Source: a virus (lineage: Duplodnaviria; Heunggongvirae; Uroviricota; Caudoviricetes). From it: 34,665 bases of DNA. Position numbers and translations under genes: made by a program. A model generated the notes under the pieces. It ran no database searches and had not been told where the DNA came from. It saw nothing but the letters and a program-made list of their open reading frames with translations. Where the stretch lies: positions 1 through 34,665 of the IMG/VR virus record IMGVR_UViG_2698536302_000011. The stretch is one strand, 5' to 3'. Numbering within the stretch: the stretch's first letter is position 1; every line of letters starts with the position of its first letter. Below, in pieces: positions 4,236 to 17,645 of this stretch.

Positions 4236-4801
4236 AATTATCTCCATTTTTACAAATGAACTTTGTTGATGCGGTGCCTGGTGCCTCCAGGTGACGTTAA
4301 CCAGTTAACAATTAACGCCGGATACAGAGAACCCACCCATAACACTGTTTTTGGTTTTAACTGTTCCGCGTGCGCTCAGCCGCATTCACCGCATCACAAA
4401 ACTCACTTTAAAAAGGGCGGCAGACCAGTCACGGAGTAAAACTGATACCGCCAAACGTCACCAGAAAATTGATAACAGAGGGCGTTGCAGCGGGGTTGTC
4501 ACTTAAGCGTATGGTCAACCTGACAACCCGGTGTCCTCAACGGGGAAGGAATAACCCCGCCATACTTACCGCCGCGCCATTTCGCGGAGTGCCACAACCG
4601 GAAGCGCACGGTCGACGAAAATTTAACGACAGGCTATCTATGAACCAGCTACCTCGCCGTGCGCTTTCGCGTTATGGTCTGACTTTTCAGGGAAATATCC
4701 TTTCAGTAAACTGTCAGTGCCGGATGCTCACCCGTGTCCGGCGCACGCACTCCACCTCACCCGTGGAGAACTCCTTAATCACCAACCCTCAGGAGGGTGA
4801 A

Positions 4802-5616: not shown

Positions 5617-5918
5617 ACTGATTCCTCGCGGTGCTGTTTCCCCTTAACGCCGGGGTAGCGGAACAAAAACCTGCTGCATAGTTATTAAAGTTGAACCCTG
5701 CCGTCATGTTCTTACGCCTCGGGCTGGCTACTTAACCCCTGACCACTGCCGGGTAACTCGAAGTATTGCCCTGCATTCTGTGGGGTGGAGTGAGGGAATG
5801 AATGAAGTTTAGAAAAATGAACTTTACAGGTCAATGTTTTTTTATCAAAACATTTTAAGCAGGCAGCTGTTAAGCCATCACCACGATGGCATACAGTTAA
5901 TCAAATAGATGAGGTTGG

Positions 5919-6557
5919 TTAAATATCTTGTTGAATTTTAAAGCATACGCCCAATACGCAAGATAGATCATCCAGCATAATTGAAGGGTAGCGAGGATTC
6001 GTGGGGACTAAAAGAATATCCGGCCCTTCTATCTCCAGTTTACGAATGACAGGTGTTGTGGTCCCTTTGGGTAAGGCAAGGACAATATTTCCTGGTTGTA
6101 CGGTTCGATCGGGATCAACAAAAACTGTTGAACCATTTGGGATGGAAACTCCCCCACCAGATGTTGACATACTGTCACTCTCTAGAACAACTGCAAAGGT
6201 ATTGGCCGGGATTTCTCCGACAAGCTGCACACAAGAGGTTATTGAGGAATTTTTCATATAATCACTCCAGCTTGCTGCCTGCTGAAGTGATAGTAGCGGA
6301 ACCGTTTTTATCGGCGGTAAAGATAGATCAAGCGAATCACCTGTATTTAACTCTCCTCCATTAAGAAGCCAATTTTCGTTTACTTTCAATATCTTTGCCA
6401 GTGAACTTATGTAACGCGAGGACGGCGCTCCTCCACCGTTCATCCATTGACTTACGGAGCCTTTTGATGCGCCAGTGGCATTGACAAGGTCTTTGCCTTT
6501 CAGGTTTAGCGCATGCATACGTTGGGTTATGCGTTCAGATATTGTTTGCTTGCTCAT
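5919..6557 (-). CDS. CI-like prophage repressor (XRE-type HTH + S24/LexA-like autopeptidase)
   Basis: 212 aa; N-terminal HTH ('LKGKDLVNATGASKGSVSQWMNG'); C-terminal S24 fold with a putative Ser/Lys dyad ('VLESDSMS', 'PVIRKLE'); divergent from a Cro-like gene. Confidence 0.85.
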   Translation of the reverse strand: MSKQTISERITQRMHALNLKGKDLVNATGASKGSVSQWMNGGGAPSSRYISSLAKILKVNENWLLNGGELNTGDSLDLSLPPIKTVPLLSLQQAASWSDYMKNSSITSCVQLVGEIPANTFAVVLESDSMSTSGGGVSIPNGSTVFVDPDRTVQPGNIVLALPKGTTTPVIRKLEIEGPDILLVPTNPRYPSIMLDDLSCVLGVCFKIQQDI

Positions 6558-6648
6558 GTTTTGATTTTAAAACACAGATGGTTTTGTTTCTTGACTTTCT
6601 TTGGTTTTGATTATTAAACTTTTGGCGTTCAGTTTTATGGAGCGACTC
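6558..6648. promoter_or_regulatory. Divergent repressor/cro promoter-operator region
   Basis: 91-bp AT-rich spacer between divergent repressor and cro-like genes; two near-identical 13-mers TTGATTTTAAAAC / TTGATTATTAAAC ~46 bp apart; TTGACT -35-like hexamer followed by a TA-rich -10 candidate reading rightward. Confidence 0.45.
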
Positions 6649-6879
6649 ATGAAAAAATCAGAAGTATTAGGCTATTTTGGCGGAGTTGTTAAAACAGCCG
6701 CAGCTCTAGGAACGTCAAAAACCACAGTCAGCATGTGGGGGGAAGAGGTTCCGTGGAAATGGGCGTTGCTAATTCAGGCAGTCACTGCCGGGGCGCTCAA
6801 ATATGAGTTACACATACCGACGGTTGTCATTCCCGGTTCTGATCATAATCCGCCTTCTAACCAAGGGGGGGATTCATGA
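6649..6879 (+). CDS. Cro-like small HTH regulator (YdaS-like)
   Basis: Small ORF divergent from the repressor; 'GGVVKTAAALGTSKTTVSMW' HTH; ATG at 6649 with GGAG 7 nt upstream (alternative ATG at 6637). Confidence 0.6.
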   Translation: MKKSEVLGYFGGVVKTAAALGTSKTTVSMWGEEVPWKWALLIQAVTAGALKYELHIPTVVIPGSDHNPPSNQGGDS

Positions 6880-7301
6880 AAATCAAGCATGAACACATCC
6901 GCATGGCGATGAATGCCTGGGCGCGTCCTGATGGCGAAAAAGTTCCAGCAGCTGGAATAACCCAGGCTTATTTTGAGTTGGGTATGACGTTCCCAGAACT
7001 GTATGACGACAGCCATCCGGAAGCCCTGGCTCGCAATACCCAGAAAATTTTCCGCTGGATAGAGAAAGACACCCCTGATGCAGTTGAAAAAATTCAGGCG
7101 TTGTTACCAGCGATCGAAAAGGCAATGCCACCTTTGCTGGTGGCCAGAATGCGCAGCCACAGTTCAGCTTATTTTCGGGAGCTGGTGGAGACGCGGGAGC
7201 GACTGGTGAGAGACGCTGATGATTTTGTCGCAGTGGCAATCGCCGGTTTCAATCAGATGAACCGTGGTGGCCCGGCAGGAAATGCTGTGGCAGTGCATTG
7301 A
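6876..7301 (+). CDS. YdaT-like protein (occupies the CII position)
   Basis: 141-aa ORF overlapping the cro-like stop (start/stop coupling); synteny matches the Rac ydaS-ydaT arrangement; family assignment from memory only. Confidence 0.45.
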   Translation: MKIKHEHIRMAMNAWARPDGEKVPAAGITQAYFELGMTFPELYDDSHPEALARNTQKIFRWIEKDTPDAVEKIQALLPAIEKAMPPLLVARMRSHSSAYFRELVETRERLVRDADDFVAVAIAGFNQMNRGGPAGNAVAVH

Positions 7302-7366
7302 GTGATAATAGCCATATCGAATCACTTCCGGCAACTCGTGAGTAAAAAGATTCGGTATCAGAAGAG

Positions 7367-8420
7367 GTGAGTATGGCTAACGCCTGGCTCAGATTATGGC
7401 ATGACATGCCAAATGACCCTAAGTGGCGAACAATTGCCAGGGTGTCAGGGCAGTCAATTGCAACAGTGATGGCAGTGTATATCCACCTCCTGGTGAGCGC
7501 GTCACGAAATGTCACGCGAGGTCACATTGATGTCACGACAGAAGATTTGGCAAGTGCGCTCGACGTGACAGAAGAGGTAATTGATTCAATTTTGCAGACG
7601 ATGCAGGGGCGGGTACTTGATGGTGATTTAATCACTGGATGGGAAAAACGCCAGGTGCTTAAAGAGGACAACGGCAATATTTCGCAAACCGCAAAATCTC
7701 CTGCAGAGCGCAAGAGGGCGCAGCGAGAGAGGGAAAGAAAGCGGGAACAAAATGGCGATTGTCACGGCGCGTCACGAAATGTCACGCACATGTCACGACG
7801 AGTCACGACAGATANAAGAAGATCAAAACACTATGGTCCATGGCGTAAAAAACGCCACGAACCAGGCAGGGGATGTTCAGACCGTCAATCTTGGTCAGCC
7901 AGCAGGCACGACACCGGAAGCCGATTCAGCGTATGCGCTGAAAGCCGATTCGGGCGCTGTGCAGCAGGTGATGACCGCAAGGCCGGAGCAATCACACCAA
8001 CTGCAGCAGCCTGAAGCCGATTCCGCCATTCAGCGGGAAGCCGATCGGGTAGTCCCGGAAAACACCGGGCAGCCTGTGAGACGAGTGGATTATCCGGATG
8101 TGTTCGAACAGGTCTGGCGGGAATACCCGTTGCGTGCTGGGGCAAACCCGAAGAAATCCGCTTTCAGTGCCTGGAAGGCCAGATTACGCGAGGGGGTGTC
8201 ACCAGAGGCCATGCTGGATGGCGTGAGGCGTTACGCAAGATACCTTGCGGCTACCGGGAAAACGGGAACGGAATTTGTTCAGCGAGCGACGACGTTTTTT
8301 GGGCCGGACCGGAATTTTGAAAACCCCTGGTTGCTCCCGGTAAGCGGCACGAACAACCAGCGTTGTGTGAATCATATTTCTGAACCGGATACCGAAATTC
8401 CACCGGGCTTCAGGGGGTAA
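7367..8420 (+). CDS. Replication-initiator-like protein (O-like / YdaU-type) with internal iterons; apparent frameshift at ambiguous base 7815
   Basis: Two overlapping track ORFs (7367-8014 and 7752-8420) in different frames; the frame switch coincides with the N at 7815 right after the second GTCACG cluster; gene sits in the replication position downstream of the cro/CII-like genes. Confidence 0.5.
7497..7544. repeat. Iteron cluster 1: four GTCAC(G/A) repeats at ~10-11 bp spacing
   Basis: gtcacg at ~7501, 7511, 7532 and gtcaca at ~7521; 18-mer cgtcacgaaatgtcacgc shared with cluster 2. Confidence 0.6.
7761..7808. repeat. Iteron cluster 2: five GTCACG repeats at ~10-11 bp spacing
   Basis: gtcacg at ~7761, 7771, 7781, 7792, 7802; followed by the ambiguous base at 7815. 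Confidence 0.6.
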
Positions 8421-8460
8421 GTGTTGATTTCTGGTCATGAGGTAATTTTCAGGAGGACTT

Positions 8461-8883
8461 GTGGCAAAAGTTTTTACACAAGAAGAGCGGGAAAAAATTA
8501 AAGGGCAGGTTGTTGAACTCGTACGCCAGAGTGGGCGCGAGACGTTACGACAACTGGAAACTAAAACTGGGGCAACAAGATATCTGATGAGCGTTCTGGC
8601 CAGAGAGCTGGTTGCCAGTGGCGATGTATACAACTCTGGTTACGGGTTATTCCCGTCTGAACAGGCGCGTAAGGACTGGCAAAATGCCCGTAAAAAGCTC
8701 TCAAGGGCAAAGCTGAAGAAACCATCTGCGGTTGATCCGGACCTTATCTGGTCATTACCTGACGGAGAAATACGTCGCTACGACAGGCGTCAGAACATAA
8801 TCTGTCGCGAGTGCCGGAAGAGTGAGGTTATGCAGCGAGTGCTGGCGTTTTATCAGGGTAATTTTCAGGAGGTGATGGCGTGA
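8461..8883 (+). CDS. Hypothetical protein (replication/nin-region position)
   Basis: 140 aa; GTG start preceded by AGGAGG; C-terminal CxxC-like 'CRECRK'; no confident family. Confidence 0.45.
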   Translation: MAKVFTQEEREKIKGQVVELVRQSGRETLRQLETKTGATRYLMSVLARELVASGDVYNSGYGLFPSEQARKDWQNARKKLSRAKLKKPSAVDPDLIWSLPDGEIRRYDRRQNIICRECRKSEVMQRVLAFYQGNFQEVMA

Positions 8884-9176
8884 GAGTGAGAGTCTATATC
8901 GCCGGTCCAATGACCGGGTATAAAAATTTCAACCGTGAGGCGTTTCACAATGCGGAAGAGGAACTGAAACGGGAAGGGCATACCGTTTTAAATCCGGCTG
9001 TGCTTCCGGATGGGCTGACACAGCCGCACTACATGGATATTTGCATGGCAATGATTCGTTGTGTGGATGCGATTTACATGCTGAAAGGCTGGCAGCGGTC
9101 AGCAGGTGCTAAGGCAGAACTGGCGCTGGCGGAGAAACTGGGGCATGCAGTTATTTTCCAGGAGGAGGTACAGTGA
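8880..9176 (+). CDS. DUF4406 / nucleoside 2-deoxyribosyltransferase-like fold protein
   Basis: 98 aa; N-terminal 'VYIAGPMTG...NFN' signature typical of that fold; GTG start after AGGAGG, overlapping the upstream stop. Confidence 0.5.
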   Translation: MRVRVYIAGPMTGYKNFNREAFHNAEEELKREGHTVLNPAVLPDGLTQPHYMDICMAMIRCVDAIYMLKGWQRSAGAKAELALAEKLGHAVIFQEEVQ

Positions 9177-9448
9177 ATATCGACGCAACAATGACGATTG
9201 GTACGGCCCTCAATACGGGGCTGGCGCTTCTTGGTTGGTGCTACATCATGTTCTGCTCATGGCGGTGGCTGTCACTGATGTTACTGAAAGAATGGAATAA
9301 ACGCTGTAAACAGACGCAGCGGCAGAAGGCAATGAATGCGTTTTTTGAGACCTTCGATATTGACAGTATAGAACCAGGAGAGCCAGCTCGCGTGATTAGC
9401 AGAGGTGACGTTGTAATTCTTGTATACCGGAGTGAAGAGAAAGCATAA
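9173..9448 (+). CDS. Small membrane protein (one predicted TM helix)
   Basis: 91 aa; hydrophobic segment 'LALLGWCYIMFCSWRWLSLMLL'; GTG start after GGAGGAGG; translationally coupled to the upstream gene. Confidence 0.4.
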   Translation: MNIDATMTIGTALNTGLALLGWCYIMFCSWRWLSLMLLKEWNKRCKQTQRQKAMNAFFETFDIDSIEPGEPARVISRGDVVILVYRSEEKA

Positions 9449-9550
9449 TCCAAATCTGAATAATTAAATCCAGCACTGTAAATAAAATTTAATCCTTAAC
9501 CGGAGGGATTTCTGCACCCTCAGAACATCAGGAGGCCGCCCGAAAGGGCG

Positions 9551-10087
9551 GTGGAGATAATAATGGAAATAACTAAAGAACGATTATTGGAAATAGCAAA
9601 TCTTAGTGAAAGGGCATTAAGTGATGGGAGGATTATTTCTCCTGATGCTTATGAATCAGTTACAAGTATAGAAATAATAACGATGGCCAGGATGCTTCTT
9701 GGTTGCCTCAAAAAAGAATATAAAAAAAAGGTGGATAGCAATGCTAATATATATGATATTTTGGACAGTTGGGGGGCTTGGGCTGCAGCTGGAAATAGTT
9801 CTATCAACTGGCAGCAAGTGGCTGATAAATATAAAGATGTAGTACCTCATGGTAAGAAATTACGCCGTCAGTGTGGCAACGATGAAGGTCGTATGATTGA
9901 TACCTGCATGTTGAAGCTTAAACAATATAGAATAGATGACTATGAGTTAATTATCGCTCATTTTGTTATAGGTATATCTTTGCGTACAATAGCACGAAGG
10001 TACAAATGTTCAGATGGAACAATAAGAAAGAATATACAACTTACAATGGGAGTATTGTTAGGATTGTCTTTTTATGTGCAATTATAG
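9551..10087 (+). CDS. Q82-type antitermination protein homolog
   Basis: C-terminal ~110 aa align to the phage 82 / DLP12 QuuD family as recalled ('WGAWAA', 'QCGNDEGRMIDTCMLKLK', 'DDYELIIAHFVIGISLRTIARRYKCSDGTIRKNIQ'); ~70-aa N-terminal extension; a shorter start at M45 (~9683) is possible; lies in low-GC DNA. Confidence 0.5.
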   Translation: MEIIMEITKERLLEIANLSERALSDGRIISPDAYESVTSIEIITMARMLLGCLKKEYKKKVDSNANIYDILDSWGAWAAAGNSSINWQQVADKYKDVVPHGKKLRRQCGNDEGRMIDTCMLKLKQYRIDDYELIIAHFVIGISLRTIARRYKCSDGTIRKNIQLTMGVLLGLSFYVQL

Positions 10088-10092
10088 ATATA

Positions 10093-10572
10093 TCACATGA
10101 GCCTTGTTATGTCTTTTAGACGCGACCAGGTAGTATAAAATTTTTTAAATGTAATAAGCAGGAAAAAAATTCCCACTTGGAGTAATAGTTGGGCATATGT
10201 GTGCTCGTCGGCATCTTTTACTAGTGGGAATTTAAACTTTAGTGTATCAGGGAAAAATAATAAAATGATAAAAATAATACAAACTGATAGTAACCATCCC
10301 ATAGTGGAGTGCATTTCTTCGGTCAGTTTTTTCAAATAACCAGTTTTTCCTATATTTCTAATTAGCGTATTATCTCTAGCTGAAGCAATCAAGGTAAGCG
10401 AACCTAAAACAAAGCCAAATAATATCCCAGAAAATGTAGAAACGGCCGAAGCGATTGGCTGAATTTGTGCAAAATTTAGCTTTGCAGAAAGAGGCCATGC
10501 GATGATACAAAAAACAACAGAGGCTAAATTATAACCATAACTGTACAAAGTTATCAATTTCCCCTTTTTCAT
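10093..10572 (-). CDS. Small four-TM membrane protein; candidate RexB-like effector
   Basis: 159 aa with four hydrophobic helices; immediately downstream of the 304-aa gene (16-bp gap) in low-GC DNA; segment after TM2 'LIASARDNTLIRNIGKTGY' resembles lambda RexB 'LIGSRTRRLAKIREYGY' as I recall it. Confidence 0.45.
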   Translation of the reverse strand: MKKGKLITLYSYGYNLASVVFCIIAWPLSAKLNFAQIQPIASAVSTFSGILFGFVLGSLTLIASARDNTLIRNIGKTGYLKKLTEEMHSTMGWLLSVCIIFIILLFFPDTLKFKFPLVKDADEHTYAQLLLQVGIFFLLITFKKFYTTWSRLKDITRLM

Positions 10573-10587
10573 ACCATCGCTCCAAAA

Positions 10588-11502
10588 TTAATCAACTCTT
10601 TGATTGGCTACTCCAAAGTATGCCTTCAATTCATCATCTTTACTATCTTTTGCAAGAGTTAAGGCGCTCCAAATGCTGCCAACTAATGGATACCTACCTC
10701 CAAGTTCAACATCTGTGTAGTAGACTAATTTGTCTGCTACAAGATCGATAGGATGCTGTACACCGGTCTCAATGTCTTGGGTTTCTAGTTTAAGTTTTTC
10801 AACCTCAAAAGTCTCTAGTGTTTCTTTAAAGGCTCTTTTTAGTTGAGAACCTAGATAGCGAGATTCAGGATCTTCAGAACGACTATCCCCACGTAATGTA
10901 AGATTTACTTTGGCAGAATTAGTACCATTTAGAGTGGCTATCAATGCATTGTTGAAGTTATGTTCAACATCCTCATATAGTTGCACATTCTTTGGCCGAG
11001 CGATACCGATTTCTAGAGTTTTGATTCGAACTTCATTACGCATCAACCACTTTAAACTACTGGTCTGAATGATGGGATTAACAGTTGTATTTTGTGAACT
11101 GTTGGAAAGATATTTACTTAATAGCAACCAGCCATAACAGAGTCTGTTTCGTTGAATTATTAAAACTGAGTCTTGGGTATAAAAATGAAAATAAGCTTTT
11201 TCTAATAAGTTTTCATTGATTTCAAGTTTAATTTCTCTTTCTTCACCTCCGGCTACAGCAACATGAGGGAGATTATTGGTTCTGTGTTTTCCTATAACTC
11301 CCCTGAAACCATAGTCGGTTCTTTCCATGAAGCGCATTTCAACTAGTTTATTTCCTATTTTACGTACAGTTTTGTCTCGGCCTTCGCTGTATGACTCAAA
11401 AATTTTTGAAAAAACAGCTTCAGGTGAATTAACTCCTGCATTTGTATCAGTGCTTATAGTGTGACATTGATAAAAATCGAAGAAAAAGCGCTTGCTAGCC
11501 AT
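10588..11502 (-). CDS. Soluble ~300-aa protein of unknown family; candidate RexA-like sensor
   Basis: 304 aa, no TM segment; first gene of a two-gene leftward operon with the four-TM protein; size and order mirror rexA-rexB; no primary-sequence match I can assert. Confidence 0.4.
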   Translation of the reverse strand: MASKRFFFDFYQCHTISTDTNAGVNSPEAVFSKIFESYSEGRDKTVRKIGNKLVEMRFMERTDYGFRGVIGKHRTNNLPHVAVAGGEEREIKLEINENLLEKAYFHFYTQDSVLIIQRNRLCYGWLLLSKYLSNSSQNTTVNPIIQTSSLKWLMRNEVRIKTLEIGIARPKNVQLYEDVEHNFNNALIATLNGTNSAKVNLTLRGDSRSEDPESRYLGSQLKRAFKETLETFEVEKLKLETQDIETGVQHPIDLVADKLVYYTDVELGGRYPLVGSIWSALTLAKDSKDDELKAYFGVANQRVD

Positions 11503-11950
11503 TGCAAAAATTTCCTGTAAAAAATAATTACATACTTAAGATACTACAAAGAATAATGCGTACGCAAAATTTTTTGTTGAGTAGAATATGTTCGCGGGGT
11601 ATTTTTCGTTAAGATATAATTACCATGGTAACTTTTGCGTTGGTAATGCATTATGTGGTGGAGAAAAAGAGAGAGTCTTATCTTTAAATTATCGCCAGCC
11701 TATATGACTATATGAGTAGTATTTAGATGGGAAATTGTTGAGTTATTGAAAGGAACCATAACCTTTATGTAAAATTACTGCGGGTGCTTGAGGTTATCTG
11801 TCTCAGGCATGCCACCAAAAGGCAGATAGAGAAAAGCCCCAGTTAACGTTACGCGTCCTGCAAGACGTTTAACATTAATCTGAGGCTCAATCTATGAACG
11901 GCAAATCTAGGTTAGCCTCTTACGTGCCGAAAGGCAAGGAGAAGCAGGCT

Positions 11951-12106
11951 ATGAAGCAGCAAAAGGCGATGTTAATCGCCCTGATCGTCATCTGTTTAAC
12001 CGTCATAGTGACGGCACTGGTAACGAGGAAAGACCTCTGCGAGGTACGAATCCGAACCGGCCAGACGGAGGTCGCTGTCTTCACAGCTTACGAACCTGAG
12101 GAGTAA
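11951..12106 (+). CDS. hok: Hok/Gef-family type I toxin
   Basis: 51 aa 'MKQQKAMLIALIVICLTVIVTALVTRKDLCEVRIRTGQTEVAVFTAYEPEE' aligns to Hok ('...[25 protein letters not shown]'); the track ORF extends in frame upstream to 11894 (possible mok-like leader). Confidence 0.85.
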   Translation: MKQQKAMLIALIVICLTVIVTALVTRKDLCEVRIRTGQTEVAVFTAYEPEE

Positions 12107-12173
12107 GAGACCAGGTGAGGGAGAAATCCCTCGCCACCTCTGATGAGTCAGGCATCCTCAACGCACCCGCACT

Positions 12174-12201
12174 TAACCCGCTTCGGCGGGTTTTGTTTTT
12201 T
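12174..12201 (+). terminator. Rho-independent terminator after hok
   Basis: CCCGC-TTCG-GCGGG hairpin followed by TTTTGTTTTTT. Confidence 0.6.
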
Positions 12202-12273
12202 CCTGGCATTCTGGTTTACAATTCGCACGCCAGCCTGAACAACTGGCACCTGCTGCGCCAGCAGAGACAACCG

Positions 12274-12546
12274 ATGGCGCACAAAACCAAATTTCACAAT
12301 TCTGATACCGCCCTTGCCATCCGGCATGGGCGGCGTTCACACGCATTTAAAACCGACTGGTACCAACACCCACCATGTACTGAAGAACAGGCCGAATGGC
12401 TAATTCATAACTACCGCAGACGCGGATACGAGATTAAGAAAGCCCTCAGCCTCGATTATCGTCACTGGATAATCTATGTCAGGCTCCCTTATTCCGAACG
12501 CCCACCGCGTCCGTCCCGCACATTCCAGCAACGCATCTGGAGGTAA
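12274..12546 (+). CDS. Hypothetical nin-region protein
   Basis: ~90 aa from the internal ATG downstream of the hok terminator; basic protein; the track ORF begins at 12115 but its upstream portion spans the terminator. Confidence 0.4.
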   Translation: MAHKTKFHNSDTALAIRHGRRSHAFKTDWYQHPPCTEEQAEWLIHNYRRRGYEIKKALSLDYRHWIIYVRLPYSERPPRPSRTFQQRIWR

Positions 12547-12547
12547 C

Positions 12548-13603
12548 GTGCGGGTATTACTTCGACCTGTTCCGGTACCGGAACTTGGGCTGGTGGTGCT
12601 AAAACCGGGCCGTGAATCCATGCAGGTATTTCATAACCCTCGAGTTCTGGTGGAGCCGGAACCGAAAAGCATGCGCGGTCTGCCGTCCGGAGTCGTTCCT
12701 GCTGTTCGCCAGCCGCTGGCGGAGGATAAATCATTACTGCCATTTTTCAGCGATGAGCGGGTGATTCGTGCTGCTGGTGGTGCTGGTGCATTGTCTGACT
12801 GGCTGTTACGCCACGTTAAATCCTGCCAGTGGCCTCATGGTGACTACCATCACAGTGAAACCGTCATACATCGTTACGGTACCGGCGCGATGGTGTTGTG
12901 CTGGCACTGCGACAACCAGCTGCGTAACCAGACTTCCGAATCACTCGGGCAGCTTGCTCACCAAAACCTGTCAGCATGGATGATTGATGTCATCCGCCAC
13001 GCAATGAATGGCACGCAGGAGCGGGAATTATCGCTGGCTGAATTATCCTGGTGGGCAACCATAAATAACGTAGCGGACGCACTACCGGAGACGGTGTTAC
13101 GTCGTTCACTGGGATTACGCGCGGAAAAAATTCGCTCAGTATACCGCGAGAGCGACATCGTGCCGGGAGAGCAGACCGCCACCAGCATGCTGAAGCAGCG
13201 CACAAAAAATATTGCGCTACTGCCTCACGCCCACCAGCAAAACCCGCCACAGGAAAAGACGGTGGTAAGCATTGCCGTTGATCCGGAGTCACCGGCTCAG
13301 TATCTCCAGCGCCAGAAACCACGACGGGAAGAGATGCCTGTATACACGCGTTGGGTAAAAACGCAGAAATGCATGACGTGTGGTAATCAGGCAGATGATC
13401 CGCATCACATCATTGGTCATGGACTGGGAGGGATGGGAACAAAGGCTGATGATTTGTTTGTTATTCCGCTGTGCCGTAAATGCCATAGCGAACTACACGC
13501 CGGGGTAAAAGATTTTGAAGAAAAACACGGCAGCCAGCTGTTGTTGCTGATTCGTTTTTTAATGCACGCGAGAAATTCGGGTGTCCTGAAGTGGAAAGCA
13601 TGA
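12548..13603 (+). CDS. DUF968-like prophage protein (Cys/His-rich C-terminal motif)
   Basis: C-terminal 'CMTCGNQADDPHHIIGHGLGGMGTKADDLFVIPLCRKCHSELHAG'; GTG at 12548 preceded by GGAGG and abutting the upstream stop (track ORF from 12476); located just upstream of rusA. Confidence 0.5.
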   Translation: MRVLLRPVPVPELGLVVLKPGRESMQVFHNPRVLVEPEPKSMRGLPSGVVPAVRQPLAEDKSLLPFFSDERVIRAAGGAGALSDWLLRHVKSCQWPHGDYHHSETVIHRYGTGAMVLCWHCDNQLRNQTSESLGQLAHQNLSAWMIDVIRHAMNGTQERELSLAELSWWATINNVADALPETVLRRSLGLRAEKIRSVYRESDIVPGEQTATSMLKQRTKNIALLPHAHQQNPPQEKTVVSIAVDPESPAQYLQRQKPRREEMPVYTRWVKTQKCMTCGNQADDPHHIIGHGLGGMGTKADDLFVIPLCRKCHSELHAGVKDFEEKHGSQLLLLIRFLMHARNSGVLKWKA

Positions 13604-13969
13604 ATGACTGAACGCATAGAATTTGTTTTGCCTTACCCGCCAACGGTGAACACTTACTGGCGACGTCGTGGCAGCACATATTTTGTATCAAAAGCCGGTG
13701 AGCGTTATCGCCGTGATGTGGCGCTTATTGTTCGCCAGCAGCGGCTGAAATTAAACCTGTCCGGAAGGCTGGCGATAAAGATTATTGCAGAGCCACCGGA
13801 TAAACGTCGTCGTGACCTGGACAATATCCTGAAAGCACCACTGGATGCGCTGACGCATGCCGGACTACTCATAGACGACGAGCAGTTTGATGAAATCAAT
13901 ATTGTGCGCGGTCAGCGCGTTCCTGGGGGGCGGCTGGGCGTGAAGATTTACAAAATTGAGAGTGAGTGA
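13604..13969 (+). CDS. rusA: RusA-family Holliday junction resolvase
   Basis: 121 aa; 'VLPYPPTVNTYWRRRG...', 'PDKRRRDLDNILKAPLDALTHAGLLIDDEQ' match the RusA family. Confidence 0.85.
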   Translation: MTERIEFVLPYPPTVNTYWRRRGSTYFVSKAGERYRRDVALIVRQQRLKLNLSGRLAIKIIAEPPDKRRRDLDNILKAPLDALTHAGLLIDDEQFDEINIVRGQRVPGGRLGVKIYKIESE

Positions 13970-14520
13970 TCGTAAATATGATATACCCGGAAATTACAGG
14001 CAAAAGCGGCGAGCATTTACGTCTAAAAACGCTGGAAGCCGTCTGGATCCAGGGGAAATTACGGATGTGGGGGCGTTGGTCGTATATAGGTGGTGGCAAA
14101 CCAGGAAATATGTTCAATCAGTTGCTGGCATCCAAAAAACTGACAAAAACCGCAATCAATGAAGCCCTGCGTAGAATCAGGGAGTCAGGGATTGATAAAC
14201 CAGAGCTGGAAGCATTCTTGCGAGAGATGATCGCTGGCAGACAGAAGAGCTGGTTGTCTCACTGTACTGATGCAGAGGCGTTACGCATTGATGGGGTGAT
14301 AAGTAAAGCGCTTGCACGTTATCCTGGATTGATTGATATCCTGCGGCAAAGGTACGAAGGGCGGGGGATGAGTAAACGCAAAATGGCTGAATTGTTGAAT
14401 GAGGTGCACCCGGAATGGTGTTTTAGTACATGCGAAAAGCGAATTGCTAATTGGTTAGCTGTTGCTGAATATGCGCTATACATCCCTATGCGAGAATCGT
14501 TTGCTCAAAAAATGTCTTGA
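13966..14520 (+). CDS. Putative late-gene regulator in the Q position (family uncertain)
   Basis: 184 aa directly after rusA; followed by the same terminator + small-ORF + methyltransferase unit that follows the lambda-Q-type fragment in the paralogous copy; no confident motif match. Confidence 0.35.
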   Translation: MIVNMIYPEITGKSGEHLRLKTLEAVWIQGKLRMWGRWSYIGGGKPGNMFNQLLASKKLTKTAINEALRRIRESGIDKPELEAFLREMIAGRQKSWLSHCTDAEALRIDGVISKALARYPGLIDILRQRYEGRGMSKRKMAELLNEVHPEWCFSTCEKRIANWLAVAEYALYIPMRESFAQKMS

Positions 14521-14604
14521 TTTTTTACGCATAAACTGTTTCAATCCAGCTACGCTTCGCAAAGCTATACCGCGAGGCGAATAGCAGACATGGACACCTG
14601 AAAG

Positions 14605-14628
14605 AACCCGCTTTATGCGGGTTTTTTT
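14605..14628 (+). terminator. Rho-independent terminator
   Basis: ACCCGC-TTTAT-GCGGGT hairpin plus T7 run. Confidence 0.6.
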
Positions 14629-14658
14629 GTGCCCGAAAAGCGGTACAGGACGTTAAAT

Positions 14659-15169
14659 GCGCTGGTGGTTGCGAATGCCGGTCTTTCAGCTTGCTGGCTT
14701 TTTCGACAAGAGGTATTGGTATGTCACGTTAACCGGAAAAGGGAAAAAGGCATGCTAAAACAGCAGGATATGACCGAAACCGCCAGAGTGGTGTTTAATG
14801 AATTAAGCATCACCGAACCGGCGACCGTCGGGGAAATTGCGCAGAATACTTACCTTTCACGCGAACGCTGCCAGTTAATACTGACTCAGCTTGTTATGGC
14901 GGGTCTGGCAGATTATCAGTTCGGTTGTTACAGACGCCTTCCGCAGTGAAGGCTTTTTAATTTGTGGTAATGGGCGGCTGGTGGGTGTTAGCGGCACCTG
15001 CCAGCCATCTGCTCATGCGTTGGGGTCACAAGCAAACCTCAGGCCCATCTGCTTTGCGCAAAAGCGGTATGAGCCTATCAGAGAAGTGCTTATTGATCTA
15101 TGATTAATACTGTAAAAATATCCAGTTGTGAGTTAATCAACGCTGATTGCCTGGAGTTTATCCAGACCT
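14659..15169 (+). repeat. Direct repeat unit A (small ORF + 5' end of the methyltransferase gene)
   Basis: Near-identical to 15722-16232 (period ~1063 bp); ends at the ambiguous base 15170; its methyltransferase-start sequence is identical to that at 16297 onward. Confidence 0.7.
14752..14949 (+). CDS. Small winged-helix-like protein (repeat copy 1)
   Basis: 65 aa 'MLKQQDMTETARVVFNELSITEPATVGEIAQNTYLSRERCQLILTQLVMAGLADY...'; near-identical copy at 15814-16011. Confidence 0.45.
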   Translation: MLKQQDMTETARVVFNELSITEPATVGEIAQNTYLSRERCQLILTQLVMAGLADYQFGCYRRLPQ

Positions 15170-17395: not shown

Positions 17396-17471
17396 GGCCC
17401 TTTAGCTCAGTGGTGAGAGCGAGCGACTCATAATCGCCAGGTCGCTGGTTCAAATCCAGCAAGGGCCACCA
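17396..17471 (+). tRNA. tRNA with CAU anticodon (Met or lysidine-modified Ile2)
   Basis: Cloverleaf folded by hand: acceptor GGCCCTT/AAGGGCC, D-arm GCTC...GAGC, anticodon loop CTCATAA, T-arm GCTGG-TTCAAAT-CCAGC, encoded CCA. Confidence 0.85.
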
Positions 17472-17478
17472 TCACATA

Positions 17479-17555
17479 CCGCCATTAGCTCATCAGGATA
17501 GAGCGCCAGCCTTCGAAGCTGGTTGCGCGGGGTTCGAGTCCTCGATGGCGGTCCA
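17479..17555 (+). tRNA. tRNA-Arg (anticodon UCG)
   Basis: Acceptor CCGCCAT/ATGGCGG, anticodon loop CTTCGAA, T-loop TTCGAGT, encoded CCA. Confidence 0.85.
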
Positions 17556-17568
17556 TTATCTGTACCCT

Positions 17569-17645
17569 GCGTTGTTAGCTCAGCCGGACAGAGCAATTGC
17601 CTTCTAAGCAATCGGTCACTGGTTCGAATCCAGTACAACGCGCCA
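17569..17645 (+). tRNA. tRNA-Arg (anticodon UCU)
   Basis: Acceptor GCGTTGT/ACAACGC, anticodon loop CTTCTAA, T-loop TTCGAAT, encoded CCA. Confidence 0.85.

What the first reader, a model, noticed from the sequence alone, without database searches (positions are those of the whole stretch)
11894..12205. Hok/Gef-type type I toxin gene in the prophage; antisense RNA expected but not located
The 51-aa product is a clear Hok homolog and is followed by a strong intrinsic terminator. Hok systems are controlled by a short antisense Sok RNA against the mRNA leader and by a leader reading frame (mok); here the upstream ORF is in the same frame as hok. The Sok-like promoter should lie on the minus strand around 11850-11960 but cannot be pinned down by eye.
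Basis: partly seen in the sequence, partly recalled or inferred. Interest (0 to 1): 0.45.

Follow-up and report, generated by a model that had tools for sequence, protein, structure and literature searches.

The report
Complete hok/mok/sok toxin module in prophage

Summary
Window 11951-12106 (+) encodes a 51-aa Hok/Gef peptide (Pfam E=1e-23), 100% identical to E. coli K-12 HokD/RelF. An in-frame 70-codon mok ORF starts at 11894, and an intrinsic terminator lies at 12175-12202. The full module spans about 11746-12202: hok promoter, tac/ucb leader, mok, hok, fbi and terminator. I located Sok on the minus strand, running about 11902→11832 from a TTGCCT-17-TAACCT promoter (11937→11909). It matches the annotated 71-nt SokW of phage 933W at 62/71 positions and has identical promoter hexamers. 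Its hairpin shows covariation across 40 loci and is more stable on the antisense strand in 40/40. The Rfam 'sok' hit lies on the hok-sense strand: that model describes the hok mRNA leader, not Sok. In-frame mok is normal for this subfamily (mokC, mokW). The locus matches 4735/5426 complete E. coli genomes, and 2611 carry the full-length form. The 91%-identical hokW-sokW has been characterised experimentally. K-12's own hokD is a truncated remnant. Already known; low interest. Expression, toxicity and the role in this prophage are inferred, not shown.

The parts
11746..11775 (+). hok mRNA promoter, TTGAAA-18 nt-TAAAAT (10 of 12 consensus positions)
   Evidence: It is the only sigma-70-like site the scan found in 11600-12400. 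Its -10 aligns with TAGAAT in 933W and Rac and TATAAT in K-12 hokC. It ends 7 nt before the first position of the Rfam leader model.
11782..12202 (+). Predicted full-length hok (mok-hok) mRNA, about 420 nt
   Evidence: The 5' end is taken from Rfam model position 1 and the 3' end from the terminator. The fold gives -168 kcal/mol, z=-6.9 against shuffles. Both ends are inferred, not mapped.
11782..11793 (+). tac (translational activator) element, GGGUGCUUGAGG
   Evidence: It pairs with the 3' fbi in the full-length MFE and centroid folds. It pairs with ucb in the Rfam consensus 5' hairpin. It is conserved in relatives.
11836..11840 (+). ucb / anti-SD box, GCCCC
   Evidence: It pairs with the mok SD (GAGGC, 11882-11886) in the full-length fold. 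It pairs with tac in the Rfam leader structure. This is the alternative pairing described for R1 (PMC9841398).
11882..11885 (+). mok Shine-Dalgarno, GAGG, 8 nt before the mok ATG
   Evidence: Read directly from the sequence. Its complement GGCCTC is invariant in the 40-locus antisense alignment. GAGG is also the mok SD motif in R1 (PMC9841398).
11894..12106 (+). mok reading frame, 70 codons, in frame with hok and sharing its stop codon
   Evidence: ORF list. The ATG 57 nt upstream of the hok ATG has the same spacing as in mokC/hokC and mokW/hokW, and recurs in most relatives.
11909..11937 (-). Sok promoter: -35 TTGCCT (11937->11932), 17-nt spacer, -10 TAACCT (11914->11909)
   Evidence: Both hexamers and the spacer are identical to those upstream of the annotated sokW in 933W. 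TTG of the -35 and TA...T of the -10 are conserved across 40 loci. Mutating the sokW -10 abolished antitoxin activity (PMC8621323). The consensus match is weak (7 of 12), so the generic scan missed it.
11832..11902 (-). Sok antisense RNA, about 71 nt: 5' GCCGUUCAUAGAUU tail, a 56-nt hairpin, then GGGGCUUUU
   Evidence: 62/71 identical to the annotated sokW. The +1 G at 11902 is invariant in 40 loci and coincides with the annotated 5' ends of SokW and SokC. The fold gives -32 kcal/mol, z=-6.2. Hairpin covariation: 54 compensatory cells against 14 expected, 0 of 500 shuffles. The hairpin is more stable on the antisense strand than on the sense strand in 40/40 loci. Exact ends are inferred.
11936..11941 (+). 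hok Shine-Dalgarno, AAGGAG, 9 nt before the hok ATG
   Evidence: Read directly from the sequence and conserved in all aligned loci. This is also where K-12 hokD homology begins.
11951..12106 (+). hok toxin gene, 51 aa, identical to K-12 HokD/RelF
   Evidence: Pfam PF01848 at E=1.2e-23. 100% identical to HokD b1562. RefSeq annotates the 99.8%-identical locus as hokD.
12156..12168 (+). fbi (fold-back inhibitory) element, CCUCAACGCACCC
   Evidence: It pairs with tac at -21.7 kcal/mol, 49 nt after the stop codon. The equivalent partner sits 45-56 nt after the stop in relatives, with matched changes in Pantoea and Citrobacter loci. It closes the full-length fold.
12175..12202 (+). Intrinsic terminator of the hok mRNA
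   Evidence: Stem AACCCGC-TTCG-GCGGGTT followed by TTGTTTTTTC.

Best explanation
The locus is a complete, apparently undamaged hok/mok/sok type I toxin-antitoxin module of the hokD/hokW class. It sits in the nin-like region of a lambdoid prophage, between the replication genes and the late antiterminator. The proposed mechanism is inferred from the R1 and hokW paradigms, and every required sequence element was found here.

1. A promoter at 11746-11775 makes a stable mRNA of about 420 nt.
2. The full-length mRNA is locked shut by pairing between its 5' tac (11782-11793) and its 3' fbi (12156-12168). In that form the ucb box (11836-11840) sequesters the mok SD (11882-11885).
3. Slow 3' trimming removes fbi. 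tac then pairs with ucb, and the mok ribosome-binding region is exposed.
4. Translation of mok (11894-) is needed for translation of the overlapping hok (11951-12106). Here mok is in frame with hok.
5. A short, unstable antisense RNA, Sok, is made from TTGCCT-17-TAACCT on the minus strand (about 11902->11832). Its single-stranded 5' tail covers the mok start codon and SD. It blocks mok and therefore hok translation, and the duplex is cleaved by RNase III.
6. When Sok synthesis stops, the stored mRNA is translated and the 51-aa Hok peptide inserts into the inner membrane and kills or lyses the cell. Possible triggers are prophage induction, loss of the element, or transcription shut-off.

For a prophage copy, the only experimentally supported role is helping lysis and phage release after induction, shown for hokW-sokW.
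For: Shown here:
- The Hok peptide belongs to the family and is identical to HokD.
- The hok mRNA leader matches the Rfam covariance model over its full length, 108.7 bits.
- tac-fbi closure appears in the MFE and centroid folds and is conserved, with matched changes, in other genera.
- The mok SD pairs with ucb in the closed fold.
- mok starts 57 nt upstream of hok, as in mokC and mokW.
- The Sok gene has 62/71 identity to sokW, identical promoter hexamers and an invariant +1 G.
- The Sok hairpin shows covariation, 96.7% of cells paired against 39-55% when partners are slid, and an invariant U-G pair that only works on the antisense strand.
- The hairpin is more stable on the antisense strand in 40/40 loci.
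- The prophage context is established by 99.6% colinearity with an annotated prophage region.

From the literature:
- The R1 switch model (PMC9841398, PMC1635323).
- For hokW-sokW: toxicity, neutralisation by a 71-nt SokW, the effect of -10 mutants, partial dependence on RNase III and Hfq, loss of SokW and appearance of HokW after mitomycin C, and halved phage release without the locus (PMC8621323).
Against: - Nothing here shows transcription, processing or toxicity. All RNA ends are inferred by homology, and the sokW coordinates in AF125520 are themselves an annotation.
- The Sok promoter matches consensus poorly (7 of 12) and was not found by the generic scan. Its conservation is confounded by overlapping sense-strand elements.
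- An MFE fold of an arbitrarily 3'-trimmed mRNA (11782-12155) did not give the textbook open form, so the refolding step is not demonstrated for this sequence.
- Intact chromosomal hokA, hokB and hokC loci failed to give post-segregational killing in earlier work (Pedersen & Gerdes 1999, as cited in 10.1101/2025.08.07.668861), so an intact sequence does not guarantee activity.
- hokW lies at a different position in its prophage, so its lysis-assist role may not carry over.
Confidence: 0.93

Rival explanations
1. It is a decayed, Sok-less remnant like K-12 hokD, whose toxin gene survives without its own regulatory RNA and is silent or read through from upstream genes.
For: The peptide is 100% identical to K-12 HokD, and RefSeq names the gene hokD. 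K-12 hokD has no leader: its homology to the window covers only 11937-12200, and relE lies upstream in its place. Several chromosomal hok loci are reported to be inactive (10.1101/2025.08.07.668861, citing Pedersen & Gerdes 1999).
Against: The window has everything K-12 lacks: promoter, tac, ucb, mok SD and ATG, and the Sok promoter, body and terminator. No IS element or frameshift is present. The upstream neighbours are on the opposite strand, so read-through from them is not possible.
Confidence: 0.04
2. The regulatory RNA is on the plus strand, as the Rfam 'sok' hit at 11782-11956 (+) would literally suggest, and there is no minus-strand gene.
For: RF01794, named 'sok antitoxin', hits the + strand at 108.7 bits.
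Against: In three reference loci the same model lands on the hok-sense strand, opposite the annotated SokC, SokE and SokW. The model is 157 nt long, begins with the tac sequence and ends at the hok AUG. The hairpin is systematically more stable on the minus strand, and a U-G pair is invariant there.
Confidence: 0.01
3. The module is intact, but its main role is something other than assisting lysis at induction. The alternatives are prophage addiction (killing cells that lose the element), abortive infection or exclusion of other phages, or no host-level role at all (a selfish passenger).
For: Plasmid hok/sok mediates post-segregational killing and has been implicated in phage defence (PMC8621323 introduction; 10.1101/2025.08.07.668861). 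hok genes are four-fold enriched in prophages (10.1101/2025.08.07.668861). The locus sits beside a minus-strand gene pair that may be an accessory cassette. The homology block begins and ends at the module's own promoter and terminator in many different contexts, as expected of a self-contained mobile cassette.
Against: No experimental evidence for these roles exists for prophage copies. The same preprint found no enrichment of hok near defence systems. The only direct experiment on a close relative points to lysis assistance (PMC8621323).
Confidence: 0.5

Closest known systems
hokW-mokW-sokW of Stx2 phage 933W / Sakai prophage Sp5 (AF125520; PMC8621323)
   Same: About 91% DNA identity over the module. 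Same architecture, same in-frame mok with 57-nt offset, identical Sok promoter hexamers and spacer, and a long-hairpin Sok of about 71 nt with 62/71 identity. Also carried by a lambdoid prophage.
   Different: The Hok C-terminus differs (FTAYEPEE here, FVDYESEK in HokW). mok codons 2-5 differ, and so does the Sok 5' tail (GCCGUU here, GUUCAG in SokW). The upstream -35 region of the hok promoter is unrelated. hokW lies near the right end of its phage genome, whereas this copy lies in the nin-like region before DUF968/RusA/Q.
hokD (relF) of the E. coli K-12 Qin cryptic prophage
   Same: Identical 51-aa toxin. 97.7% DNA identity from the hok SD to the terminator. The downstream neighbour is the same kind of gene (DUF968/ydfU). 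DicF and dicB lie in the same prophage.
   Different: K-12 lacks the hok promoter, tac/ucb leader, mok start and the whole Sok gene, and relBE abuts the hok SD instead. The window therefore carries a complete version of the module, of which K-12 keeps only the 3' part.
hokC(gef)-mokC-sokC of the E. coli chromosome
   Same: Same element order. mok is in frame with hok and shares its stop codon. Sok overlaps the mok start by 9 nt. About 75% DNA identity and 118 bits to the same Rfam model.
   Different: SokC has a short hairpin (38 nt against 56 nt here) because it lacks the 18-nt insertion. The K-12 copy has IS186 just downstream. It is not prophage-borne.
hok/sok (parB) of plasmid R1, the paradigm
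   Same: Same logic: tac/fbi lock, ucb/mok-SD switch, mok-hok coupling, and an antisense Sok with a single-stranded 5' tail plus a hairpin (PMC9841398, PMC1635323). All of these elements were found here.
   Different: The Hok protein is only distantly similar: HokW is 44% identical to R1 Hok (PMC8621323). R1 is plasmid-borne and has proven post-segregational killing. R1 Sok is 64 nt (PMC1635323). From my own recollection of the R1 sequence, not tested here, R1 mok is out of frame with hok.

Membership tests
hok/sok (Hok/Gef) type I toxin-antitoxin family | Small hydrophobic Hok/Gef peptide of about 50 aa | tested here: met
   PF01848 at E=1.2e-23, covering profile positions 1-42 of 42. Identical to K-12 HokD.
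hok/sok (Hok/Gef) type I toxin-antitoxin family | Conserved, structured hok mRNA leader running from +1 to the hok AUG | tested here: met
   Rfam RF01794 scores 108.7 bits against a gathering score of 59, matching model positions 1-157 of 157. The model was verified to be hok-sense in three annotated loci.
hok/sok (Hok/Gef) type I toxin-antitoxin family | Long-range tac-fbi pairing that closes the full-length mRNA | tested here: met
   The 12-bp tac/fbi stem appears in the MFE and centroid folds. The duplex energy is -21.7 kcal/mol at stop+49, with position and complementarity conserved and matched changes in two other genera. These are predicted structures only.
hok/sok (Hok/Gef) type I toxin-antitoxin family | mok leader ORF with its own SD, overlapping hok | tested here: met
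   GAGG followed 8 nt later by ATG at 11894, giving a 70-codon ORF. The spacing is the same as in annotated mokC and mokW.
hok/sok (Hok/Gef) type I toxin-antitoxin family | ucb (anti-SD) able to pair alternately with the mok SD and with tac | tested here: met
   GCCCC (11836-11840) pairs with GAGGC (11882-11886), and with the tac arm in the Rfam consensus hairpin. Whether the switch actually happens was not shown: the trimmed-mRNA fold was inconclusive.
hok/sok (Hok/Gef) type I toxin-antitoxin family | Antisense Sok gene opposite the mok translation-initiation region: promoter, single-stranded 5' tail, hairpin and U-tract | tested here: met
   as detailed under parts. This is sequence-level evidence only.
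hok/sok (Hok/Gef) type I toxin-antitoxin family | Sok RNA is expressed, is unstable, and neutralises Hok | not testable with these tools
   Shown for the 91%-identical hokW-sokW (PMC8621323), not for this allele.
hok/sok (Hok/Gef) type I toxin-antitoxin family | Hok is toxic, through membrane depolarisation or lysis | not testable with these tools
   Over-expressed CDSs of the studied Hok homologues, a set that includes HokD, induced lysis, with HokB and R483 PndA as the exceptions (10.1101/2025.08.07.668861, citing Wilmaerts 2021). The peptide here is identical to HokD.
hok/sok (Hok/Gef) type I toxin-antitoxin family | 3' exonucleolytic processing to a translatable truncated mRNA, and RNase III cleavage of the Sok duplex | not testable with these tools
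   Described for R1 (PMC1635323, PMC9841398). For hokW, smaller RNAs were seen but not assigned (PMC8621323).
K-12-type hokD/relF locus (hok fused behind relBE, no mok or sok) | Absence of the hok leader, mok and sok, with relE immediately upstream | tested here: not met
   The window has a full leader and a Sok gene. K-12 homology covers only 11937-12200. 'hokD' describes the toxin allele correctly but not the locus architecture.

The most novel reading that the evidence does not exclude
The first ~6 nt of Sok (equivalent to mok codons 2-3, window 11897-11901) and the spacer between the mok SD and ATG are the only strongly variable positions among hokD/hokW-class loci that are otherwise at least 90% identical. 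In R1, the Sok 5' tail makes the initial contact with its target (PMC1635323). E. coli genomes carry a median of 2 and up to 10 matching places. The tail alleles could therefore act as a specificity code that keeps co-resident hok/sok paralogues from cross-protecting one another. Each prophage would then keep a private antitoxin, and this window would carry one such allele (GCCGUU), found in 30% of genomes. The plainer alternative is that these are simply the only positions in the overlap that are free of other constraints.
Probability: 0.3. Interest if true: 0.35.

Novelty: already known. Interest (0 to 1): 0.1.

Why it matters
It matters little as a discovery. The module is one of the oldest-known toxin-antitoxin systems. 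This exact class is annotated in phage 933W and has been characterised experimentally in Sp5. About 87% of complete E. coli genomes hold a match, and about 48% hold a full-length copy.

Three practical points are worth keeping:
- Genome annotation pipelines mark only the hok CDS here, so mok and Sok go unannotated.
- The Rfam family named 'sok' actually reports the hok mRNA leader on the sense strand, so a literal reading of that hit puts the antitoxin on the wrong strand.
- The K-12 reference 'hokD' is a truncated remnant, whereas prophages such as this one carry a complete version of the module and are the better material for studying what prophage hok/sok does.

Tried and rejected
- The generic sigma-70 scan over 11600-12400 found the hok promoter but no minus-strand promoter. 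The Sok promoter is too far from consensus (7 of 12), so it had to be placed by homology and conservation.
- Folding a 3'-trimmed mRNA (11782-12155) to reproduce the 'open' tac/ucb form gave a different long-range closure. The true processing site is unknown and MFE folds of ~370 nt are unreliable, so I dropped this as evidence either way.
- I considered whether the Rfam + strand hit means Sok is on the + strand, and rejected it.
- I considered whether the in-frame mok is unusual, and rejected it.
- I considered whether the window's Sok-tail allele is rare. It is not: 1627 genomes carry it.
- NCBIfam Hok models hit below their curated cut-offs (48.5 bits against 73). This reflects subfamily-specific models and is not evidence against membership, since Pfam and 100% identity to HokD settle that.
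- PADLOC has no model that hits Hok.
- I did not use structure prediction or the large protein searches. For a 51-aa peptide identical to a named protein they would add nothing.

Full report
**Observation**

The region 11500-12500 was read directly and its ORFs were listed. ORF 11951-12106 (+) encodes a 51-aa peptide that matches Pfam PF01848 (Hok/Gef) at E=1.2e-23 over the whole 42-position profile. It is 100% identical to E. coli K-12 HokD/RelF. An ATG at 11894, 57 nt upstream and in the same frame, opens a 70-codon ORF that ends at the same stop codon. A terminator stem at 12175-12192 followed by TTGTTTTTTC was the only terminator-like site found in 11600-12400. Its span omits the upstream third of the module.

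**Anatomy of the whole module**

- A sigma-70-like promoter, TTGAAA-18-TAAAAT, lies at 11746-11775. Its -10 aligns with the -10 of the hokW, Rac hok and hokC loci.
- Seven nucleotides further on, at 11782, the Rfam family RF01794 begins to match. It continues over its full 157 positions to the hok AUG, scoring 108.7 bits at E=5e-24.
- The predicted full-length mRNA (11782-12200) folds at -168 kcal/mol, z=-6.9. Its first 12 nt (GGGUGCUUGAGG, tac) pair with CCUCAACGCACCC at 12156-12168 (fbi) in both the MFE and centroid structures.
- In the same fold, GCCCC (11836-11840, ucb/anti-SD) pairs with the mok SD region GAGGC (11882-11886). In the Rfam consensus hairpin the same GCCCC pairs with tac.
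- These are the alternative pairings that define the closed and open forms of R1 hok mRNA (PMC9841398, PMC1635323).
- Across relatives, a tac-complementary box sits 45-56 nt after the hok stop. Matched substitutions occur in a Pantoea locus (GGGCGC with GCGCCC) and a Citrobacter locus (GAAG with CTTC).

**What the Rfam 'sok' hit means**

The hit is on the plus strand, which is the hok-sense strand. I ran the same library on three loci where Sok is annotated independently. These were K-12 sokC (+ in L003), K-12 sokE (- in L006) and 933W sokW (- in L007). In all three, RF01794 matched the strand opposite the annotated Sok, spanning the hok leader. RF01794 therefore models the hok mRNA leader. 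Its hit confirms the locus type but does not locate the antitoxin.

**Locating Sok**

- In 933W, sokW is 71 nt long and its 5' end lies 9 nt inside mokW. K-12 sokC likewise overlaps the mokC start by 9 nt.
- Transferring these coordinates by alignment gives window 11902->11832 on the minus strand. That stretch is 62/71 identical to sokW.
- The 48 nt upstream on the minus strand carry TTGCCT (11937->11932), a 17-nt spacer and TAACCT (11914->11909). All three are identical to 933W.
- The candidate RNA has a single-stranded 5' tail and a long hairpin followed by GGGGCUUUU. It folds at -32 kcal/mol, z=-6.2.

**Conservation test**

A protein-seeded scan of one genome per species returned 53 loci from Escherichia, Shigella, Kluyvera, Citrobacter, Pseudocitrobacter, Pantoea, Erwinia and Photorhabdus. 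Homology to the window typically starts at 11765-11785, at the module's own promoter and +1. An antisense-strand alignment of 40 distinct loci shows the following:

- TTG of the -35 and TA...T of the -10 are conserved.
- The G at the position of 11902 is invariant.
- CAT (complement of the mok ATG) is near-invariant and GGCCTC (complement of the mok SD) is invariant.
- A GGGGCTTT tail is conserved.

RNAalifold recovered the Sok hairpin without guidance, with five pairs showing double compensatory changes. With that helix specified, 96.7% of cells pair, against 39-55% when partners are slid by 1-3 columns. There are 54 compensatory cells against 14.2 expected, and 0 of 500 shuffles reach this.

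The sense strand could form the complementary hairpin, so I looked for strand asymmetry. One U-G pair is invariant and several G-U pairs are common on the antisense strand; on the sense strand these would be mismatches. The hairpin is more stable on the antisense strand in 40 of 40 loci, by 9 kcal/mol on average. The hokD/hokW class carries an 18-nt insertion that lengthens the hairpin to 56 nt, against 34-38 nt in hokC and Photorhabdus loci.

**mok frame**

K-12 mokC and hokC share a stop codon, as do 933W mokW and hokW. An in-frame ATG exactly 57 nt upstream of hok occurs in most of 47 distinct loci, including Photorhabdus, Pantoea and Citrobacter. Some relatives, such as phage Rac, have a 1-nt indel that puts mok in another frame. 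That fits the view that mok matters through its translation and not through its peptide.

**Context and distribution**

- Window 5637-15169 is 99.6% colinear with an annotated E. coli prophage region.
- In that region hokD lies after the repressor/Cro, replication-type genes and a Q-family gene.
- It is preceded by two minus-strand genes (a hypothetical protein and DUF6731).
- It is followed by DUF968, RusA, a DUF1133 Q-like protein, a DNA methyltransferase, tRNAs, lysis genes and terminase.
- DicF RNA (74 bits) and three tRNAs are in the window.
- The 561-nt query around the locus matches 4735 of 5426 complete E. coli genomes. 2611 of them hold a place covering at least 80% of it, with a median of 2 places per genome and a maximum of 10. 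It also matches 78 phage records, including Stx phages.
- RefSeq annotates only the hok CDS. No feature is annotated over the mok start and Sok region.
- K-12's own hokD shares only 11937-12200 with the window, and relE sits where the leader should be. K-12 therefore holds a truncated remnant, and the window holds a complete module.

**Mechanism and role**

The mechanism given under Best explanation is the R1 model (PMC9841398, PMC1635323), with every sequence element verified here. For the closest relative, Takada et al. (PMC8621323) showed the following:

- HokW is toxic.
- A 71-nt SokW made from its own promoter neutralises it, and -10 mutations abolish that protection.
- RNase III and Hfq contribute partly.
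- Mitomycin C causes rapid loss of SokW and RecA-dependent appearance of HokW.
- Deleting the locus halves Sp5 phage release.

A 2025-26 survey found hok four-fold enriched in prophages and noted that Sok and Mok boundaries are generally only predicted (10.1101/2025.08.07.668861). Which role applies to this copy is not decided by sequence. The candidates are lysis assistance, addiction, exclusion or none.

**Limits**

No transcript, processing event or toxicity was observed here. RNA ends are inferred by homology to annotations. Promoter conservation is confounded by overlapping sense-strand elements. The refolding of the processed mRNA could not be reproduced by a simple MFE fold.

**Verdict**

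The finding is real and correctly interpreted, and it is already known: a common hokD/hokW-type hok/mok/sok module. The value added here is the placement of Sok and its promoter, the full element map, and the caveat about the strand of the Rfam model.

Noticed in passing
window 11782-11956 (+); L003, L006, L007: The Rfam family RF01794, named 'sok antitoxin', matches the hok-sense strand in every locus tested, opposite the annotated SokC, SokE and SokW. It spans the hok mRNA from +1 to the hok AUG. Taken literally, its hits put the antitoxin on the wrong strand.
   Followed up: yes
window 11887-11901 (Sok +2 to +16; mok codons 2-3 and the SD-ATG spacer): Among nine loci that are at least 90% identical overall, variation is concentrated in the Sok 5' tail (1.0-2.0 bits at 11897-11901), while the promoter, anti-SD and hairpin are nearly invariant. 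This could be a specificity determinant between paralogues, or simply the only unconstrained positions. The window's allele occurs in 1627 of 5426 E. coli genomes.
   Followed up: partly
window 12088-12094 (TTACGAA across the Hok Tyr47 codon, TAC at 12089-12091): From my own knowledge, not tested here, UACG is the sequence context TadA recognises, as in the tRNA-Arg anticodon loop. A preprint reports TadA A-to-I recoding of Tyr to Cys in hokB and a similar phenomenon in hokC, hokD and hokE. Editing here would add a third cysteine near the C-terminus.
   Followed up: no
window 10588-11502 (-) and 10093-10572 (-): Immediately upstream of hok, on the opposite strand, lies a gene pair: a 304-aa DUF6731 protein followed by a 159-aa protein with several hydrophobic stretches (multi-pass membrane protein by eye). 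The second gives a weak PADLOC RexB hit (E=0.0015, 16.9 bits). The evidence is weak.
   Followed up: partly
window 4415-4466 (-): A full-length DicF antisense sRNA (Rfam RF00039, 74.2 bits). In the related annotated prophage dicB lies in the same region, as it does in K-12 Qin.
   Followed up: no
window 17396-17645 (+): A cluster of three prophage tRNA genes. ARAGORN calls them Met (CAT), Arg (TCG) and Arg (TCT). The related RefSeq prophage annotates only two tRNAs in this region, an Ile and an Arg. If the Ile corresponds to the CAT tRNA, it would be a lysidine-modified tRNA-Ile2. The window is less similar to that record here, about 96%.
   Followed up: no
window about 11851-11868; alignment A3 columns 83-100: hokD/hokW-class loci carry an 18-nt insertion, relative to hokC and Photorhabdus loci, that extends the Sok hairpin (and the complementary mRNA hairpin) from about 36 nt to 56 nt. 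It appears as an insertion in the Rfam alignment.
   Followed up: partly
L002 (K-12 1645119-1645274) compared with window 11937-12200: K-12 hokD keeps only the segment from the hok SD to the terminator. The hok promoter, leader, mok start and Sok gene are absent, and relE lies upstream in their place. The reference-strain 'hokD' is therefore a remnant of the complete module seen here.
   Followed up: yes
L023, L028; hit H57: Near-identical hokD-type sequences (96-100% protein identity) turn up on very short contigs (275-431 nt) labelled Acinetobacter idrijaensis and Xanthomonas pisi. A 95%-identical DNA match turns up in a record labelled Actinobacillus phage. These are most likely E. coli contamination or mislabelling, not true host range.
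   Followed up: no
window 11880-11925; RefSeq records H71-H78 and L001: RefSeq/PGAP annotates nothing over the mok start and Sok region, and only the hok CDS in the module. It also calls a probably spurious 59-aa minus-strand 'hypothetical protein' across the hok terminator (window 12148-12327).
   Followed up: partly
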